A program made the translations under genes and the position numbers. From IMG/VR virus record IMGVR_UViG_2648501669_000016, positions 1 to 4,794 of that record: DNA of 4,794 bases, one strand, 5' to 3'. This document shows, piece after piece, positions 1 through 4,794 of the stretch (position 1 is the stretch's first letter; every line of letters starts with the position of its first letter). The DNA is from a virus (lineage: Duplodnaviria > Heunggongvirae > Uroviricota > Caudoviricetes). The notes below the pieces were generated by a model. It made no database searches. It was not told the DNA's origin and was given only the letters and a program-made list of their open reading frames with translations.

Positions 1-14
1 GTTTACCATGTTCA

Positions 15-24
15 CCCCCCCCCC
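15..24. repeat. Homopolymeric C10 (plus) / G10 (minus) tract immediately 3' of the ssb stop codon
   Basis: Ten consecutive C at 15..24. On the minus strand this reads TGA-GGGGGGGGGG-TGAAC-ATG, where the ATG at 9..7 could start a further downstream minus-strand gene (only 3 codons, M-V-N, are inside the window). Confidence 0.9.
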
Positions 25-459
25 TCAGAATGGCGCTTCATCGTCGAATGGTGGGCGCTGGTCGTATTCATCACGGGTTGACTGCTGCGCACGTCTCAGC
101 GCGTCCGTCGCCTGTCCCCGCTGGCTATTTTTGCCTCCCTGTCGCACCGTTCGCGCACTGATTACGCTGTCTGCGATAACCTGCCAGCCCTGCCGCGTTT
201 CGCCGTTCTGGCCTGTCCACTGGTTCACCTGCATGTTACCCGCCACGCTCACAAGGTCGCCTTTGTGGTGCTTTGCCAGTGCGTCGGCCTGTCTGCCAAA
301 GGCAGTTACGGCAAGCCATAGCGTCGCCTGCCCGTCGTCTGCGTTATGGCACGGCACTGATACCGCCATGCGTGCCAGCGTCATGCTTGTGCCTTTGCTG
401 GTCTGTTTTACCTGCGGCTCGTCCACCAGCCGCCCGTATGCTGAAATTTGTGCTGTCAT
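25..459 (-). CDS. ssb: Single-stranded DNA-binding protein (SSB family, OB fold plus acidic C-terminal tail)
   Basis: The translation matches the SSB pattern: GRL..EP near the N-terminus, W-x-x-V-x-x-FG...KG..V.V.G.....WT.Q.G..R in the OB-fold core (LWLAVTAFGRQADALAKHHKGDLVSVAGNMQVNQWTGQNGETRQGW), and a C-terminal tail PPFDDEAPF resembling the canonical SSB tip DDDIPF. The stop codon is TGA at 27..25. The start is placed at ATG 459..457, which overlaps the upstream ORF stop as TAATG; an in-frame GTG at 468 is an alternative start (the ORF track runs 25..468). Confidence 0.8.
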   Translation of the reverse strand: MTAQISAYGRLVDEPQVKQTSKGTSMTLARMAVSVPCHNADDGQATLWLAVTAFGRQADALAKHHKGDLVSVAGNMQVNQWTGQNGETRQGWQVIADSVISARTVRQGGKNSQRGQATDALRRAQQSTRDEYDQRPPFDDEAPF

Positions 460-668
460 TAAGCGCACTCCATTCTTGATAACGTGTCGTCAATATTCCC
501 AGCGGCTCGTTTCAGGTAGTCCATGCTGTCATTTAGTCGGGATAATTCGCCAGCCAGTAACAAGGCCGCCGCCTCCTGCGCGGTGAACCCCTGCGCTTCA
601 ATCTCTCTAACAACTTCGATCTGCTTTTTATGATGTTCGTTCATTTTTTCGCCCTTTAGCTGAATCAT
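459..668 (-). CDS. Small hypothetical protein (61-69 aa) between the iteron region and ssb; function unknown
   Basis: An ORF on the same strand as ssb, with its stop TAA (461..459) overlapping the ssb ATG (TAATG), which suggests translational coupling. There are two candidate starts: ATG at 668 preceded by a G7 run, and ATG at 644 preceded by AAGGGCG with about 6 nt spacing. The translation (MNEHHKKQIEVVREIEAQGFTAQEAAALLLAGELSRLNDSMDYLKRAAGNIDDTLSRMECA) has no motif I can assign. Confidence 0.5.
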   Translation of the reverse strand: MIQLKGEKMNEHHKKQIEVVREIEAQGFTAQEAAALLLAGELSRLNDSMDYLKRAAGNIDDTLSRMECA

Positions 669-669
669 A

Positions 670-694
670 CCCCCCCTGTGAATCTTTTTGGGGG
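670..694. promoter_or_regulatory. C7 / G5 inverted repeat (potential hairpin) directly upstream of the small ORF start
   Basis: The plus strand has cccccccc at 670..676, a 13-nt spacer (tgtgaatcttttt) and ggggg at 690..694. On the minus-strand mRNA this would pair the G-rich stretch immediately 5' of the ATG at 668 with an upstream C-run. No U-tract follows on either strand, so it is not a classical intrinsic terminator. Confidence 0.3.
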
Positions 695-700
695 TGTAAT

Positions 701-946
701 ATCCCTACCAATCCCTACCAATCGATAAAACCCATATGTGGCGCGGCTTTCAGGCTGGTAGGGCATTGTTTTTCTACCCCTACTTATCCCTACCTATCCC
801 TACCAAATACCAAAAAACGGTTATGCGTGGCTTCTTGTTTAGTAGGGATATGTAGGGATATGTAGGGATAAATATATATATCCCTACCAGTCTACAAGCC
901 CCGTCATTACTGGCCTTAAATGACTTTGTAGGGATAGGTAGGGATA
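701..946. repeat. Iteron array; putative origin of replication (ori / cis replication region) of the element
   Basis: Direct-orientation ATCCCTACC copies at 701-709, 711-719, 786-794, 796-804 and 880-888, with a partial copy at 777-783. Inverted-orientation GTAGGGAT copies at 842-849, 852-859, 862-869, 928-935 and 938-945, with a degenerate ggtagggca at 757-765. The tandem copies are spaced 10 bp apart. An AT-rich aatatatata sits at 871-880 between inverted and direct copies. The block is non-coding and lies immediately 3' of the primase-helicase stop at 960-962. Confidence 0.75.
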
Positions 947-959
947 AATCAGGGGTAAA

Positions 960-3416
960 CTATTCATCACCCCCTTCGGCGGTGCTGCTGCCATATGCTC
1001 GCGGTATAAACTCCTCCGCCAACTCATTGATCCCAACGTTCGTCTGCGCTCTGCCGTTAATGCTGCGTGTCAGGTAGTTAGCCCTGTATTCTCTGGCGGC
1101 TGATTTAATCGCCCGTGAGAACTTGTTGACGGAAAGCGGCTTCCCTAGCCCGTGATATTCCATAAAGGCCAAATAAAGGTGATACAGGTAAGTTCTCGGC
1201 TCTGGCTGTCCTGCCCACGTTCCTCCCCCCATCATCATTCCCTTCGGCTCGTTCATAAAATACAAGGCCGCGCACATGTCTATGACCGGATCTGTCCCGC
1301 GCTTAACGCCCAACGCCTCTGCGGAATCGCGCTGCTCGATTAAAAGCGCTTTAGCTTTGTTCTGGTCGGCAAACATTGCCAGCAAGTGACGAATAATTAC
1401 CGGCATTTCACGGCAGATCTTCGCTGTCAGGTCGGGGTCTTTCTCCGCTTCTGATACCGGATTATCGAACGGGAATATCACACGGCGGCGGGCAATGCCC
1501 CCGTTGCGCTCGGTAAAGGTCATTGGTTCGTTGTTGGTTGCGAGAACAACGGCATTTAGCACGGTGGTGAACTGCTTTTCATACTTACCATCAATCTCTA
1601 CTGGGTCGCCGCCTGTAATGGCCTTTATCCCTGCGCCTTCGCCAACATAGCGGGTCTGGTCTGGCATGATAATCAGGCTTTTTCCTACAAGCTGCGCCCG
1701 CCCTCTGGCTGTGTCTAGCGCTCCCATGCTGGCGCTGGCTGTGTTGTGCTCACCTGCCAGTGATACGGCTATGCTGCTGAATACGGATTTCCCACTGCCG
1801 CCCTCGCCAGTTATCTCAATGAATAGCTGCCAGTCGTGACGCTTCGCCAGCACCATAAACAAGGCTGCTTTGATACGCTCGGCCTTATGATGGTCGCCAG
1901 CCGTTGCATGATTCAGCCAACGGGTAAAATTGGGGGCGCTGGTGGTAATATTTTCCCCCGGCGCTGGCGGGGTGTAGGTGATCCCATTGTGGTTCATCAG
2001 CCAGTTACCCGGCGAATGGGCGGAAAACGTCTGCGTAGCGAGGTCATAAACGCCGTTATCAAAACCAATCAGATCCCCGCTCCGCTCACCAATTACCGGT
2101 ATTTGCAGCTTCATGGTTGCGACAACCGATTTAATCCCCTTTTCGGTGTAGTGGGCTTCGTGCTCGTCGAAAATTGCCACCATAACCCTTTCTAATTCGC
2201 TGTCTGGTAGCTTCACCCATACGCCAGATTCGTAGCAGTAAACAGTGCCACTATCTGGGTTAACCGCCAACATATCCCATCGAGATGAAAGCAACCGCGC
2301 TTTCTGGCTGGCTGCCATTTGTGCAATATCTCCGACATCGGCTTTACGGCGGGATTTACCGCCAGCAATGGCCTGTAGTTGTGGTTTCACGCATTCCCCC
2401 TGCGGCCGGTACATCGAATCGTTAATCGCAGCCGTAGCGACTTCCAGCCCGTGTTGCTGGTGGTAGTCGTTCCAGTCAGCTTTGCTGTCAGTCGGTGGCA
2501 GCGATACCCAGCCAGCCACGGATAAAGCTGCTTTCTCTGCGGCCTCCTTCCCGATGTTGGTGGCTCCGGTTTCGGAGGCTGCTGTAGGGTGGTCGTTATC
2601 TGCGGCGATAATAATTTGCGACTGCGGGTATTTCCGGCGCATTACTCCGGCAACGTGGATCAGGTTCCCGGCGTCAATTGCTGCCACTGCCAGCGCGTCC
2701 GGGCGCATCAGGTGAACAGACAGAGCGGTAGCCAGCCCCTCGGCAATTAAAACGCTCTGCGGCGATTCTGGCGCGTTTACGGCGTGATATGCCCCGCGCT
2801 TTGCTGAACCTGTCAGGAGTCGCTTCTCTCCCTGCGGTGTAATGGTTTGCGCTGCTGCCACTGCGCCGGATTCGTCCACCAGCTCCAGCAATAACGAACC
2901 ATCCGGCATAACCGGATAGTTAAACCCGGTCAGCCCTTTTGATTGCAGGTAATCAGATTCGCCCTGTGTGGCACTCTGGCGCATTCCGGCATACAGATGG
3001 GCAAACGTAGCCCTTCGCTGCTCTGCGTCCTCTGCTGCCTGTTTCTGGCGCTCCTGCTCACGCTGCTGGCGGTCGGCTTCCAGTTGCTCTCTTCTATGGC
3101 TCGCTGCCGCCGGGTCGGTTTGCGCTGCCCGGTAATCAATACCCAGCACGTCAGCGGCAAGCTGTGCCGCCTCCGTGGTGTCGCAGTTGTTAACCCGCTT
3201 GATTAAATCCAGCCCGTCACCAGCGCCACACTGGTTGCAGATAAAGCTACCGCGCCCGTTGTCGTCGAATCTGAAACGGTCTTTTCCACCACATGCAGGG
3301 CAGGGAGCATGACGGCGCGGAGAGTCAGGGACATTTATGTTCAGGCAGCCCAGCACATGAGGCCAGTTGTTTTCAGACGCACTGATAACCTGACGGATAA
3401 GATCAATGTTTCGCAT
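960..3416 (-). CDS. Primase-helicase fusion protein (zinc ribbon + TOPRIM-type primase + SF3 / P4-alpha-type helicase); replication initiator of a mobile element
   Basis: An 818-819 aa ORF. A CxxC-17-CxxC zinc ribbon (CPACGG...CNQCGAG) is encoded around 3228..3302. The primase region carries the conserved glutamate motif IAEGLATA and the acidic motif IIAADNDH. The helicase region has Walker A GEGGSGKS (nt 1785..1808), a Walker-B-like LIIMPD and an SF3 motif-C-like VLATNN. A charged E/Q/R-rich linker lies between the zinc ribbon and the primase domain. The start is placed at ATG 3416..3414; an in-frame GTG at 3419 is one codon upstream (the ORF track runs 960..3419). Confidence 0.9.
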   Translation of the reverse strand: MRNIDLIRQVISASENNWPHVLGCLNINVPDSPRRHAPCPACGGKDRFRFDDNGRGSFICNQCGAGDGLDLIKRVNNCDTTEAAQLAADVLGIDYRAAQTDPAAASHRREQLEADRQQREQERQKQAAEDAEQRRATFAHLYAGMRQSATQGESDYLQSKGLTGFNYPVMPDGSLLLELVDESGAVAAAQTITPQGEKRLLTGSAKRGAYHAVNAPESPQSVLIAEGLATALSVHLMRPDALAVAAIDAGNLIHVAGVMRRKYPQSQIIIAADNDHPTAASETGATNIGKEAAEKAALSVAGWVSLPPTDSKADWNDYHQQHGLEVATAAINDSMYRPQGECVKPQLQAIAGGKSRRKADVGDIAQMAASQKARLLSSRWDMLAVNPDSGTVYCYESGVWVKLPDSELERVMVAIFDEHEAHYTEKGIKSVVATMKLQIPVIGERSGDLIGFDNGVYDLATQTFSAHSPGNWLMNHNGITYTPPAPGENITTSAPNFTRWLNHATAGDHHKAERIKAALFMVLAKRHDWQLFIEITGEGGSGKSVFSSIAVSLAGEHNTASASMGALDTARGRAQLVGKSLIIMPDQTRYVGEGAGIKAITGGDPVEIDGKYEKQFTTVLNAVVLATNNEPMTFTERNGGIARRRVIFPFDNPVSEAEKDPDLTAKICREMPVIIRHLLAMFADQNKAKALLIEQRDSAEALGVKRGTDPVIDMCAALYFMNEPKGMMMGGGTWAGQPEPRTYLYHLYLAFMEYHGLGKPLSVNKFSRAIKSAAREYRANYLTRSINGRAQTNVGINELAEEFIPRAYGSSTAEGGDE

Positions 3417-3774
3417 CACCGTACCCCACGTGGTCTATAGCGTTTGCGATATGGCTAACCAGCATCTGCCACTTGGTTATTCCGTAATCAGTCAGCATGC
3501 CATCATTGTTTAGCCACATATCAAATTCAGCGGTTGTCGCAAGTTTCCACTTATCGCCGTGGACAGTCCTCATTGCTGGGTACATGAATGCGCAAATCAG
3601 ATCACAAACATCTGACGGCTTCAGAGATGTAGTAATGGTGCGTCCCTCTGGCGTCTGAATTGCCATTTTCTCTTCACCAGTAGAATGAAGGTTATGAATC
3701 CACACAGCACCAGCAATCTTTGCCACCTGCTCTCCGATTGCGGAGCTAAGCGCCATTTCTACATTTTCACGCAT
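3403..3774 (-). CDS. Hypothetical protein (123 aa), translationally coupled to the primase-helicase gene
   Basis: The ATG at 3774 is preceded by a strong SD (GGGAGG, 5 nt spacer). The stop at 3405..3403 overlaps the primase start by 14 nt. Same strand as its neighbours, no gaps. I recognise no motif. Confidence 0.6.
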   Translation of the reverse strand: MRENVEMALSSAIGEQVAKIAGAVWIHNLHSTGEEKMAIQTPEGRTITTSLKPSDVCDLICAFMYPAMRTVHGDKWKLATTAEFDMWLNNDGMLTDYGITKWQMLVSHIANAIDHVGYGDAKH

Positions 3775-4108
3775 GAGAACCTCCCGCTACAGTTGCGCCC
3801 ATGTCATTAACCATGCTTTGCCATATCTCACGCCCGACGTCAGTCAATCTGTCCTTAGTGACGCAACGATCAAGAAGCTCGATCCCCACGGTTTCCCACT
3901 GCGGGTAGAACACTTTCATGGCTGCCAGTGTGTAGCTATCGATCAGGCTGCGAACGCCTTTTACTCCATTGACGATTTCCACACGGACGGCCTCTCCGTC
4001 CGCATCAATCATGAAATAGTCCCCGCCGCTGGTGGAGGTAATGTGGTTATACAGTGCTGACGCATACTTATTTGCCAGCGCATTCAGTCGGAAATTTTTA
4101 GTAATCAT
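3767..4108 (-). CDS. Hypothetical protein (113 aa)
   Basis: The ATG at 4108 is preceded by GGATGGAGCC, containing a GGAG SD. Its last codons (..GGSHA, nt GGGAGGTTCTCATGCGTGA) encode the SD and start of the next gene, with an 8-nt overlap ATGCGTGA. I recognise no motif. Confidence 0.6.
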   Translation of the reverse strand: MITKNFRLNALANKYASALYNHITSTSGGDYFMIDADGEAVRVEIVNGVKGVRSLIDSYTLAAMKVFYPQWETVGIELLDRCVTKDRLTDVGREIWQSMVNDMGATVAGGSHA

Positions 4109-4118
4109 GGCTCCATCC

Positions 4119-4721
4119 TCAGTGCGTCACTGGTTCCGCTGGCATGCCGTTTTCATTCAGTTCAGCTATAAAGCTGTTGTGAAGTTCAGCAAGCGTTTCA
4201 CGACCAAATGGAGTCAGTGCTCCTTGTTCCACATCCATCATGGCTCTGTAGAAAATGATGGCGCGTTCTGTGCCAGACTCGATGCCAAAACGTTCTATCA
4301 TCGCGCCCTCAATGTTGTTTGCCATAGCGAGGCGCTCTGCTACTGGATACAGCGACATGGCGACGATGCCGTTGGAATAAACAGCCACTTCGGAAGGATT
4401 GCCAGTATCATCAATGATGCTGACAGTGCCGTTTTCCTTTCTCATTTCATTGATGAATGCTGTTGCTATCAGCCAGCGCCACATAATCACGTGATGCTGT
4501 GATGTGTAATCGAAATATCCCTGGTTGCCGCCACTGGCAATAGCGAGATGTATAAACATGCCTTCATCTGGTTTATCGTCATAATCCCCGGCATCCAGAC
4601 GATTTACGGCATCAATATATGAGACGGTCTCAACGCGTTCTGTCATGCCATCGTTGCTGCGGTACATGATGTTTACGCCGTCAGGCGTTGCTTCTGCATG
4701 GAAAGTTAAGAAATTATTCAT
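4119..4721 (-). CDS. Hypothetical protein (200 aa from ATG 4721; 211 aa if started at ATG 4754)
   Basis: A long minus-strand ORF. The ATG at 4721 has a GAGG SD 6 nt upstream and overlaps the stop of the upstream partial ORF (ATGAATAA), so I prefer it as the start. The ATG at 4754 is in frame but lacks an obvious SD. The stop TGA at 4121..4119 lies 10 nt before the next start. Function unknown. Confidence 0.6.
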   Translation of the reverse strand: MNNFLTFHAEATPDGVNIMYRSNDGMTERVETVSYIDAVNRLDAGDYDDKPDEGMFIHLAIASGGNQGYFDYTSQHHVIMWRWLIATAFINEMRKENGTVSIIDDTGNPSEVAVYSNGIVAMSLYPVAERLAMANNIEGAMIERFGIESGTERAIIFYRAMMDVEQGALTPFGRETLAELHNSFIAELNENGMPAEPVTH

Positions 4722-4794
4722 GTTTCGCCTCGCCTGAATGATTCTGTAACTCATATTTGCCCAACAATTCGTCCGCTTCCTGAATAGCTTCTGG
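4714..4794 (-). CDS. 3' end of an upstream gene running in from beyond the window edge (partial; C-terminus ..PEAIQEADELLGKYELQNHSGEAKHE)
   Basis: An open frame with no stop runs from the window edge at 4794 to TAA at 4716..4714, and that stop overlaps the downstream ATG at 4721. Only 26 codons are visible, so coding status rests on frame continuity and the coupling geometry. Confidence 0.35.
   Translation of the reverse strand, partial: PEAIQEADELLGKYELQNHSGEAKHE

What the first reader, a model, noticed from the sequence alone, without database searches (positions are those of the whole stretch)
842..888. Near-perfect palindrome: three inverted iterons, a TATATA-rich centre, then one direct iteron
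The sequence gtagggata-aatatatat-atccctac has perfectly inverted arms around an alternating AT core, preceded by two more tandem gtagggata copies. Head-to-head protein binding sites flanking an easily melted spacer are the usual layout of an unwinding or loading site, and this is the most likely point of initial strand opening within the putative origin. It could alternatively be an operator for a dimeric regulator.
Basis: partly seen in the sequence, partly recalled or inferred. Interest (0 to 1): 0.45.

Follow-up and report, generated by a model that had tools for sequence, protein, structure and literature searches.

The report
Satellite-element replication origin, core iteron junction
The palindrome is real and is one of two conserved head-to-head binding-site junctions in the replication origin of a phage-satellite island (PICI / P4 family), next to its own primase-helicase gene; this is a known kind of origin, so the finding is sound but ordinary.

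Summary
Window 842-887 holds three exact GTAGGGATA repeats at 10-bp phasing, an 8-bp AATATATA spacer and one exact inverted copy.

It is part of a larger array. Twelve iterons (700-946) fill the 291-bp gap between a P4-alpha-type primase-helicase gene (960-3419, minus strand) and a small ORF plus ssb. They form two inverted six-iteron modules (2 + 1 inverted + 3) around a dyad centre near 823.

The layout matches two known origins:
- The experimentally tested origin of the E. coli PICI EcCICFT073.
- The six type-I iterons of phage P4 ori.

Across 16 related origins, from Escherichia to Aeromonas and Tolumonas, the iteron sequence changes but each origin keeps two GTAG-N18-CTAC junctions (N17 or N19 in three second junctions), usually with an A/T tract in the spacer. 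Iteron type follows the initiator's C-terminal winged-helix origin-binding domain, not its primase or helicase domains.

The A/T core (867-882) is the least stable duplex in the window, so melting there is plausible. It is unproven, because some relatives carry their largest AT-rich tract in a different spacer.

Verdict: a new member of a known kind. Origin identity is well supported; the exact melting point is inferred.

The parts
842..870 (+). Three tandem iterons GTAGGGATA (842, 852, 862) at 10-bp phasing. They are the triplet of origin half A.
   Evidence: Exact matches. Conserved at 0.89-0.92 mean pairwise identity across 11 origins, against 0.61 for spacers.
871..878 (.). A/T spacer AATATATA of the head-to-head junction. 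With the iteron ends it forms a 14-bp pure A/T run (868-881). Candidate DNA unwinding point.
   Evidence: Least stable 12-, 16-, 20- and 30-mer of the whole window. The 8-bp length is fixed and the composition is A/T-rich in most GTAG-type relatives. Column identity 0.82.
879..887 (-). Single inverted iteron (TATCCCTAC on the + strand). Together with 862-870 it forms GTAG-N18-CTAC.
   Evidence: Conservation 0.94. The first junction is N18 in all 16 origins.
888..927 (.). About 40-nt spacer of half A, carrying a conserved non-iteron motif (AAGCC...CATTACTGG type).
   Evidence: Similar motifs occur in origins with different iterons. Function unknown.
928..946 (+). Two tandem iterons (928, 938) nearest the primase stop codon. 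They are the outer pair of half A.
   Evidence: Exact matches. The same outer pair is seen in P4 ori and EcCICFT073.
804..841 (.). Central spacer containing the dyad centre (~823) of the whole origin. It is 63% A+T and its sequence varies among relatives.
   Evidence: Inverted-repeat pairs 739-807/838-906 and 700-721/925-946 share one centre. The corresponding columns are the most variable in alignment A1.
775..803 (-). Three tandem iterons of half B (775 with 1 mismatch, 785, 795).
   Evidence: alignment A1.
758..774 (+). Degenerate inverted iterón of half B (GTAGGGCAT, 758-766) plus an 8-bp spacer TGTTTTTC. This is the second GTAG-N18-CTAC junction (758-783).
   Evidence: A second junction is present in all 16 related origins: N18 in 13, N17 or N19 in 3.
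700..718 (-). Two tandem iterons (700; 710 with 1 mismatch). They are the outer pair of half B.
669..699 (.). Conserved C-run / AAAAAGATT / G-run motif bounding the origin on the side of the next gene. Role unknown.
   Evidence: Present in every lineage whatever its iteron sequence. No promoter or terminator match.
960..3419 (-). Primase-helicase initiator (819 aa, P4 alpha / PICI Pri-Rep type). Domains: Zn-ribbon, Toprim, D5_N, SF3-type ATPase and a C-terminal origin-binding domain.
   Evidence: Pfam; PHROG DNA primase at 8e-149; the helicase part matches PDB 7OLA, deposited as 'DNA primase'.
1020..1295 (-). Codons for residues 709-800, the winged-helix origin-binding domain inferred to read the iterons.
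   Evidence: Matches PDB 1KA8 (P4 alpha origin-binding domain) at E = 1.1e-8. Iteron family follows this domain and not the rest of the protein.
25..468 (-). Element-encoded single-strand DNA-binding protein, two genes downstream of the origin.
   Evidence: Pfam SSB at 3.8e-17. The order pri - ori - small ORF - ssb is the same in EcCICFT073 and relatives.

Best explanation
Window 842-887 is the core junction of one half of the replication origin of a phage-satellite island of the Gram-negative PICI / P4 family. The GTAGGGATA repeats are iterons: binding sites for the C-terminal winged-helix domain of the primase-helicase encoded immediately upstream (960-3419, minus strand).

The whole origin (700-946) has 12 iterons arranged as two inverted six-iteron modules. 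Each module has an outer pair, a ~40-nt spacer, one inverted iteron, an 8-bp A/T spacer and a 10-bp-phased triplet. This is the arrangement of the six type-I iterons of P4 ori.

Inferred steps:
1. Initiator subunits occupy the phased sites, with two of them head-to-head across the fixed GTAG-N18-CTAC junction.
2. The 14-bp pure A/T run between them is the easiest place to open.
3. The protein then loads itself as a hexameric 3'-5' helicase, primes with its own Toprim domain, and the element's SSB coats the opened strands.

Shown here: the array, its position, its conservation, its co-variation with the binding domain, and its low duplex stability. Inferred: binding itself, the stoichiometry and the melting point.
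For: 1. Array and statistics.
2. Position: directly 3' of a P4-family primase-helicase with a 1KA8-like origin-binding domain.
3. Same layout in EcCICFT073. Its pri-ori segment supports plasmid maintenance, which the pri-delta-ori and delta-pri-ori derivatives were built to test (PMC6092414; layout). [quoted passage not shown]
4. P4 ori type-I repeats are annotated as 3 + 1 inverted + 2 with start-to-start spacings of 10, 11, 22, 43, 10. The window has 10, 10, 17, 49, 10.
5. Sixteen origins from Escherichia, Klebsiella, Kluyvera, Atlantibacter, Shimwellia, Buttiauxella, Rosenbergiella, Yersinia, Tolumonas and Aeromonas carry different iterons (GTAGGGATA, GTAGAGATA, GTAGATAG, GGTAGACC, GTAGGGTT, GGTAGACA). 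All keep the layout and two GTAG-N18-CTAC junctions.
6. Iteron columns have 0.83 pairwise identity against 0.61 for spacers; 0 of 20,000 permutations reach that difference.
7. Iteron family follows the origin-binding domain. L045 has a helicase domain 80% identical but a binding domain only 38% identical, and uses P4-type GGTGAACA. L030 has a primase domain only 37% identical but a binding domain 62% identical, and uses a GTAG-type iteron.
8. In four more complete related islands the iterons form a single cluster; only isolated 1-mismatch singletons lie elsewhere.
9. The A/T core is the least stable duplex in the window and the dominant opening site in a simplified superhelical-stress model.
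10. There are no DnaA boxes, IHF sites or GATC clusters in the origin, which fits a self-contained initiator.
11. Five of seven viral-contig hits to the exact palindrome lie about 80 nt past the stop of a primase homologue.
Against: - No binding, melting or replication data exist for this sequence.
- The A/T run is short (14 bp).
- In EcCICFT073 and the P4-iteron lineages the least stable segment is the ~40-nt spacer next to the junction, not the junction spacer itself. In Aeromonas L036 the junction spacer is not A/T-rich.
- The stress model picks sites outside the origin in L006, L045 and P4, and ranks the origin sites below an outside site in the L001 and CFT073 segments.
- There are two junctions and a central spacer, so the first opening could be elsewhere.
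- A/T tracts between sites could serve bending rather than melting.
- The window does not include the ends of the element, so its PICI status rests on relatives.
Confidence: 0.8

Rival explanations
1. The region is the origin, but this junction is only an architectural or binding element with fixed spacing and an A/T tract for bending or subunit docking. Strand opening starts elsewhere: in the central spacer (804-841), in a ~40-nt spacer (888-927 or 720-757), or at the second junction (758-783).
For: In EcCICFT073, L007, L045, L061, L062 and P4 ori the least stable 16-mer lies in the ~40-nt spacer or beside the iterons, not in the junction spacer. SaPI origins are described as having the AT-rich region at the centre with half the iterons on each side (PMC9371898), and the window's dyad centre is at ~823. 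The stress model is inconsistent across relatives.
Against: In this window the junction core is the least stable segment at every window size, and neither the central spacer nor the 40-nt spacers rank close to it. The junction spacer is A/T-rich in most GTAG-type origins. The central spacer is the least conserved part of the origin.
Confidence: 0.3
2. The region corresponds to P4 crr, a cis-acting replication enhancer next to the alpha gene, and the true origin lies elsewhere in the element, outside the window.
For: In P4 the iteron cluster directly 3' of alpha is crr, and ori lies about 4.7 kb away.
Against: Four more complete related islands have only this one iteron cluster. The layout matches P4 ori (3 + 1 + 2), not the crr unit. 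The equivalent EcCICFT073 region was cloned with pri as the replicon.
Confidence: 0.05
3. The palindrome is an operator for a dimeric regulator, or for the initiator acting as a repressor, controlling transcription of the downstream small ORF, ssb and later genes.
For: It is a dyad-symmetric site in an intergenic region. Inverted iterons act as operators in some iteron plasmids (general knowledge).
Against: No sigma-70-like promoter lies on the coding strand in 430-1100. The site is about 200 bp from the next start codon. It is one element of a 12-copy phased array that co-varies with the initiator's binding domain. It is not at the initiator's own promoter.
Confidence: 0.05
4. It is a chance or structural repeat, such as a cruciform or recombination hotspot, with no sequence-specific protein partner.
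For: The single strand can form a hairpin of -7.6 kcal/mol, z = -2.1.
Against: The statistics, the deep conservation with concerted iteron changes and the modest hairpin energy all argue against it.
Confidence: 0.01

Closest known systems
Replication origin of Gram-negative PICIs, e.g. EcCICFT073 (Fillol-Salom et al. 2018, ISME J, PMC6092414)
   Same: It lies immediately 3' of the pri-rep gene and is followed by a small ORF, ssb and perC-type genes. The iteron layout is identical (2, ~40 nt, 1 inverted, short spacer, 3, then the mirror half), including GTAG-N18-CTAC junctions. [quoted passage not shown] Close relatives of the window sit at the yicC-dinD site listed for the PICI EcCIRM13514.
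   Different: The iteron is GTAGGGATA rather than GGTAGACA (CFT073) or GGTGAACA (RM13514). The initiator is the long 819-aa form with an N-terminal Zn-ribbon and Toprim primase, against 584 aa in CFT073. Its binding domain is only 45% identical to that of CFT073. The most A/T-rich tract is the 8-bp junction spacer, whereas in CFT073 it is the 40-nt spacer.
Phage P4 ori (and crr), bound by the alpha protein
   Same: The initiator has the same domain order, and its C-terminal domain matches the solved P4 origin-binding domain 1KA8. P4 ori has six iterons arranged 3 + 1 inverted + 2 with near-identical spacings. The position directly after the alpha gene is that of P4 crr.
   Different: P4 uses TGTTCACC iterons, and its binding domain is only ~35% identical. 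P4 splits the function into ori and crr about 4.7 kb apart, whereas this element has one compact 12-iteron inverted duplication. The P4 junction spacer is 14 nt between the annotated 8-mers and is not A/T-rich.
SaPI origins and their self-loading Rep / PriRep helicases (PMC9371898)
   Same: Six to twelve iterons lie immediately downstream of rep, with an AT-rich region flanked by oppositely oriented iterons. Recognition is by a C-terminal winged-helix domain, and a model of two self-loaded hexamers has been proposed. The helicase domain matches 7OLA at E = 2.4e-11.
   Different: SaPI iterons are penta- or hexanucleotides and the AT-rich region is central. The hosts are Gram-positive. There is no detectable similarity outside the helicase core.
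Iteron-plasmid origins (RepA, pi, TrfA class)
   Same: Phased direct repeats bound by a plasmid-encoded initiator next to an A/T-rich unwinding element.
   Different: There are no DnaA boxes or IHF sites. The initiator is itself a helicase-primase, not a Rep that recruits DnaB. The iterons are arranged as inverted modules.

Membership tests
Gram-negative PICI origin (EcCI type) | Iteron array located immediately 3' of the pri-rep (primase-helicase) gene | tested here: met
   The array at 700-946 begins 14 nt past the stop of the 960-3419 ORF.
Gram-negative PICI origin (EcCI type) | Two sets of oppositely oriented iterons flanking an A/T-rich region | tested here: met
   Six copies lie on each strand. 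There is a pure A/T run at 868-881 and a central spacer of 63% A+T.
Gram-negative PICI origin (EcCI type) | Same layout as the experimentally tested EcCICFT073 origin | tested here: met
   Side-by-side maps and shared GTAG-N18-CTAC junctions.
Gram-negative PICI origin (EcCI type) | Supports initiator-dependent autonomous replication | not testable with these tools
   Needs a pri-ori plasmid maintenance assay like the one in PMC6092414.
Gram-negative PICI (the element as a whole) | Integrase, AlpA-type regulator, a specific att site, unidirectional operon, helper-phage induction | tested here: inconclusive
   The window lacks the element's ends. Relatives at 85-94% identity have int, AlpA/HTH, antA/B and Icd-like genes at yicC-dinD, guaA-xseA or on a plasmid. 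Induction cannot be tested here.
P4 ori | Alpha-family initiator with a C-terminal winged-helix origin-binding domain | tested here: met
   1KA8 match at E = 1.1e-8 over residues 709-800; Pfam domain set.
P4 ori | Type-I iteron TGTTCACC / GGTGAACA | tested here: not met
   The iteron here is GTAGGGATA. P4-type iterons occur only in lineages whose binding domain is ~35-38% identical.
P4 ori | Six iterons arranged 3 + 1 inverted + 2 | tested here: met
   Window starts 842, 852, 862 / 879 / 928, 938 against P4 starts 9310, 9320, 9331 / 9353 / 9396, 9406.
P4 ori | Bipartite system with a separate crr several kb away | tested here: not met
   Related islands have a single iteron cluster. The window's own element cannot be seen in full.
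Classical iteron-plasmid origin | DnaA boxes and/or IHF site beside the iterons | tested here: not met
   No DnaA box with at most 1 mismatch and no IHF consensus within 660-960.
Transcriptional operator | Dyad site overlapping or adjoining a promoter | tested here: not met
   No sigma-70-type promoter on the coding strand in 430-1100. Other promoter types are not covered by the scan.

The most novel reading that the evidence does not exclude
The compact 12-iteron origin may be the ancestral form for the whole P4-alpha / Gram-negative PICI family. It consists of two inverted six-site modules, each of which could template one hexamer of the primase-helicase. The invariant GTAG-N18-CTAC junction would be the nucleation and melting point, giving a self-assembling double hexamer in the manner of the viral SF3 helicases. 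On this view P4's separated ori and crr are a derived, split version of this single origin. [quoted passage not shown]
Probability: 0.3. Interest if true: 0.5.

Novelty: new member of a known kind. Interest (0 to 1): 0.3.

Why it matters
The finding identifies the cis-acting replication origin of a widespread family of enterobacterial phage satellites. The origin is unannotated in every public record examined.

The comparative picture gives concrete predictions for anyone studying how self-loading primase-helicases open DNA:
- Two inverted six-site modules.
- A strictly fixed head-to-head spacing.
- Iteron type that follows the winged-helix domain.

The same picture links the PICI origin layout to P4 ori. 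For genome annotation, the practical result is a simple signature of such origins: a phased iteron array with two GTAG-N18-CTAC junctions (or equivalent) directly 3' of a P4-family primase gene. Nothing here overturns current understanding.

Tried and rejected
- **Phage collection:** a megablast of the whole window found nothing. The element is a chromosomal or plasmid-borne island, not a deposited phage.
- **RNA families:** Rfam gave no match in the window, so the repeats are not a structured RNA gene.
- **Promoter and terminator scan:** nothing on the coding strand near the origin. This weakens the operator reading and leaves the conserved C-run/G-run motif unexplained.
- **Host-factor sites:** no DnaA boxes, IHF sites or GATC clusters in the origin.
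- **Superhelical-stress model:** my own single-run approximation, with the window treated as a closed circle, supported the site in the window and in L014. It failed to pick the origin in L006, L045 and P4, so I do not rely on it.
- **Literature search for the iteron sequence:** it returned only I-SceI site matches.
- **Ziegelin et al. 1993:** the primary P4 alpha paper is not held in the library. Statements about alpha binding type-I iterons rest on the P4 GenBank annotation, on citations in other papers and on general knowledge.
- **Cruciform reading:** the hairpin is only -7.6 kcal/mol.
- **Viral-contig hits:** two of the seven hits to the exact palindrome (L090, L095) are isolated chance palindromes with no primase and no other iterons.

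Full report
**What is in the sequence.** The window carries GTAGGGATA exactly at 842, 852 and 862 on the + strand. The 8-nt spacer AATATATA follows at 871-878, then the exact inverted copy TATCCCTAC at 879-887. The 26-bp unit 862-887 reads as two abutting 13-nt arms that are 92% complementary. The run 868-881 is 14 bp of pure A/T. With at most one mismatch the 9-mer occurs 13 times in the window against 0.55 expected, and 11 of these lie in 700-946.

**The larger array.** Counting a degenerate copy (GTAGGGCAT, 758-766), there are 12 iterons:
- On the minus strand: 700, 710, 775, 785, 795 and 879.
- On the plus strand: 758, 842, 852, 862, 928 and 938.

Two inverted-repeat pairs, 739-807/838-906 and 700-721/925-946, share a centre near 823. 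The region is thus one large imperfect palindrome made of two six-iteron halves. Each half has an outer pair, a ~40-nt spacer, one inverted iteron, an 8-nt spacer and a 10-bp-phased triplet. The other half has its own junction at 758-783 with the same 8-nt spacer. GTAG-N18-CTAC occurs exactly twice in the window against 0.04 expected.

**Gene context.** All real genes in the window are on the minus strand.
- The array fills the gap between the stop codon of an 819-aa protein (960-3419) and a small ORF followed by an SSB gene (25-468).
- The 819-aa protein has a primase zinc ribbon, Toprim, D5_N, a DUF5906-type ATPase domain and a Pox_D5 C-terminal domain.
- It matches a PHROG DNA primase family at 8e-149.
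- Its helicase part matches PDB 7OLA, deposited as 'DNA primase'. From my own knowledge this is the SaPI5 PriRep.
- Residues 709-800 match PDB 1KA8, the origin-binding winged-helix domain of phage P4 alpha, at E = 1.1e-8.

**Related elements.** Related DNA occurs in about 1,800 of 5,426 complete E. coli genomes over the genes, but the origin itself is found in only 78 of them. It is never annotated. In relatives the genes belong to ~13-kb islands with this content: integrase, AlpA-type HTH, antA/B, an Icd-like gene, the P4-family primase, the gap, a small ORF, ssb, and in several a perC-type gene. These islands sit at yicC-dinD, next to xseA, or on a Klebsiella plasmid. The yicC-dinD site is listed for the published PICI EcCIRM13514.

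**Comparative evidence for the layout.** A protein-guided scan of one genome per species returned 80 loci. In every lineage with a complete C-terminus the region just past the primase stop carries a repeat array, but the repeat sequence differs:
- GTAGGGATA in Kluyvera, Atlantibacter, Shimwellia, Buttiauxella and E. coli.
- GTAGAGATA in Rosenbergiella.
- GTAGATAG in Yersinia pekkanenii.
- GGTAGACC in Tolumonas.
- GTAGGGTT and GGTAGAGA/ACA in Aeromonas.
- P4-type GGTGAACA in Rahnella, Tatumella, Erwinia and Serratia.
- GGTGCACA in Proteus and GATGTATAG in Xenorhabdus.

The layout is the same throughout. In 16 GTAG-type origins the first junction is always GTAG-N18-CTAC. The second is N18 in 13 origins and N17 or N19 in 3. 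The junction spacers are usually A/T tracts.

**Conservation within the window's own iteron group.** In an alignment of 11 origins, iteron columns average 0.83 pairwise identity against 0.61 for spacers. No permutation out of 20,000 reaches that difference. Rosenbergiella shows the same G-to-A change in most of its copies, in both orientations. That is what is expected if one protein reads all of them.

**What reads the iterons.** Comparing domains separately shows that iteron family follows the C-terminal domain and not the rest of the protein.
- Tatumella L045 is 63% identical in the primase domain and 80% in the helicase domain, but only 38% in the binding domain. It uses P4-type iterons.
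- Tolumonas L030 is 37% identical in the primase domain but 62% in the binding domain. It uses a GTAG-type iteron.
- An alignment of the binding domains splits cleanly into a GTAG clade and a GTGNACA/GTATAG clade.

This is indirect but consistent evidence that the winged-helix domain is the iteron reader. That role has been established for P4 alpha (title of Ziegelin et al. 1993; Yeo et al. 2002) and for SaPI Reps.

**Comparison with known origins.**
- *EcCICFT073.* It has the same synteny: primase, a 288-bp gap, small ORF, ssb, perC. It has the same iteron map with GGTAGACA. The pri-ori segment of that element was cloned and tested for plasmid maintenance against pri-delta-ori and delta-pri-ori derivatives. 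[quoted passage not shown]
- *P4.* Its GenBank record annotates six type-I repeats in ori as three, one inverted, then two, with start-to-start spacings 10, 11, 22, 43, 10. It places crr directly after the alpha gene. The window's half A has spacings 10, 10, 17, 49, 10. Each half of this origin therefore resembles a P4 ori module, placed where P4 has crr.
- *Single cluster.* Unlike P4, four more complete related islands have only one iteron cluster. The 'crr-only' reading is therefore unlikely.
- *SaPIs.* Their origins are described in the same terms: 6-12 iterons just past rep, an AT-rich region flanked by oppositely oriented iterons, ATP-independent binding and melting, and probably two self-loaded hexamers (PMC9371898).

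**Is the A/T core the melting point?**

Evidence for:
- With nearest-neighbour energies, 867-882 is the least stable 16-mer of the whole 4.8-kb window. The same site wins at 12, 20 and 30 nt.
- A simplified single-bubble superhelical-stress model puts the dominant opening at 832-887.
- The junction spacer is the least stable origin segment in L001, L005, L006, L014 and L067.

Evidence against:
- In EcCICFT073, L007, L045, L061, L062 and P4 ori the least stable segment is the ~40-nt spacer or a flank.
- In Aeromonas L036 the junction spacer is not A/T-rich.
- The stress model does not pick the origin in several relatives.

What is strictly conserved is the head-to-head geometry, not the location of the largest AT-rich tract. 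I therefore rate origin identity at about 0.9 and 'first opening occurs at 868-881' at about 0.5.

**Other readings.**
- *Operator.* This is unlikely. There is no promoter on the coding strand. The site is one of twelve phased copies, and it lies downstream of the initiator gene.
- *Host-factor origin.* There are no DnaA boxes, IHF sites or GATC clusters.
- *Structured RNA.* There is no Rfam match.
- *Cruciform.* The hairpin is modest, at -7.6 kcal/mol.

**Distribution of the exact palindrome.** The pattern GTAGGGATA-N8-TATCCCTAC occurs in seven IMG/VR contigs. In five it lies about 80 nt past a primase homologue (80-90% identity) and is surrounded by 6-7 exact iterons. The other two are isolated chance palindromes.

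**Verdict.** This is the core of a satellite-element origin of a type already described and tested in a sister element. Three points go modestly beyond the cited description: the two-module architecture with an invariant junction spacing, the correspondence of each module to P4 ori, and the coupling of iteron type to the winged-helix domain. The class is nevertheless known, so novelty is 'new member of a known kind' and interest is low to moderate.

Noticed in passing
window 669-699 (also L084 7235-7275, and the equivalent place in L001-L006, L014, L030, L045, L061, L067, L010, L025): A conserved non-iteron motif, C-run / AAAAAGATT-like / G-run, bounds the origin next to the following gene in every lineage, whatever its iteron. 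In the P4-iteron lineages L007, L061 and L062 an inverted copy also sits just after the primase stop. It is not a T-tailed terminator and gives no sigma-70 match. Function unknown.
   Followed up: partly
window 720-757 and 888-927: Both ~40-nt spacers carry a related motif (CTGAAAGCC...CTGG, or AAGCC...GGCTT) that recurs in origins with unrelated iterons, including Xenorhabdus and EcCICFT073. This suggests a second, iteron-independent recognition element, such as a priming or host-factor site.
   Followed up: partly
window 960-3419 compared with L002, L045, L007, L030: The primase-helicase is a domain mosaic. E. coli 19-5 (L002) is 100% identical in the binding domain and 99.7% in the helicase domain, but only 86% in the primase domain. 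Tatumella L045 shares the helicase domain (80%) but not the binding domain (38%). The origin and the binding domain appear to be exchanged together as a cassette.
   Followed up: partly
L086 6000-6750 (Salmonella enterica conjugative plasmid pLG26p2 and three similar plasmids): A decayed copy of the element. The primase gene is truncated to its last 187 residues (83% identical to residues 633-819). The origin retains the distal half with degenerate iterons, then the outer pair, but has lost the triplet-A/T-inverted junction that is the subject of this finding.
   Followed up: partly
L085 (Klebsiella pneumoniae plasmid pVA126-339, 292763-311053): A complete island (integrase to PerC) with an origin 94% identical to the window's sits on a 339-kb plasmid rather than in a chromosome. 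A tape-measure gene lies next to it.
   Followed up: no
window 14-25 and 669-676: Runs of 10 and 7 C on the + strand (G on the coding strand) lie just upstream of start codons of minus-strand genes. They may be unusual G-rich ribosome-binding regions or slippage-prone tracts.
   Followed up: no
window 3403-4754: Three minus-strand ORFs upstream of the primase (123, 113 and 211 aa) have no Pfam match. Two belong to PHROG families of unknown function (phrog_37628, phrog_1515). They vary among relatives.
   Followed up: no
L009 and L049 (contigs labelled Chryseobacterium sp. 18061): Enterobacterial-type islands, with primase up to 81% identical and with frameshifts, occur in an assembly labelled Chryseobacterium. 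This probably reflects contamination or mislabelling of that assembly.
   Followed up: no
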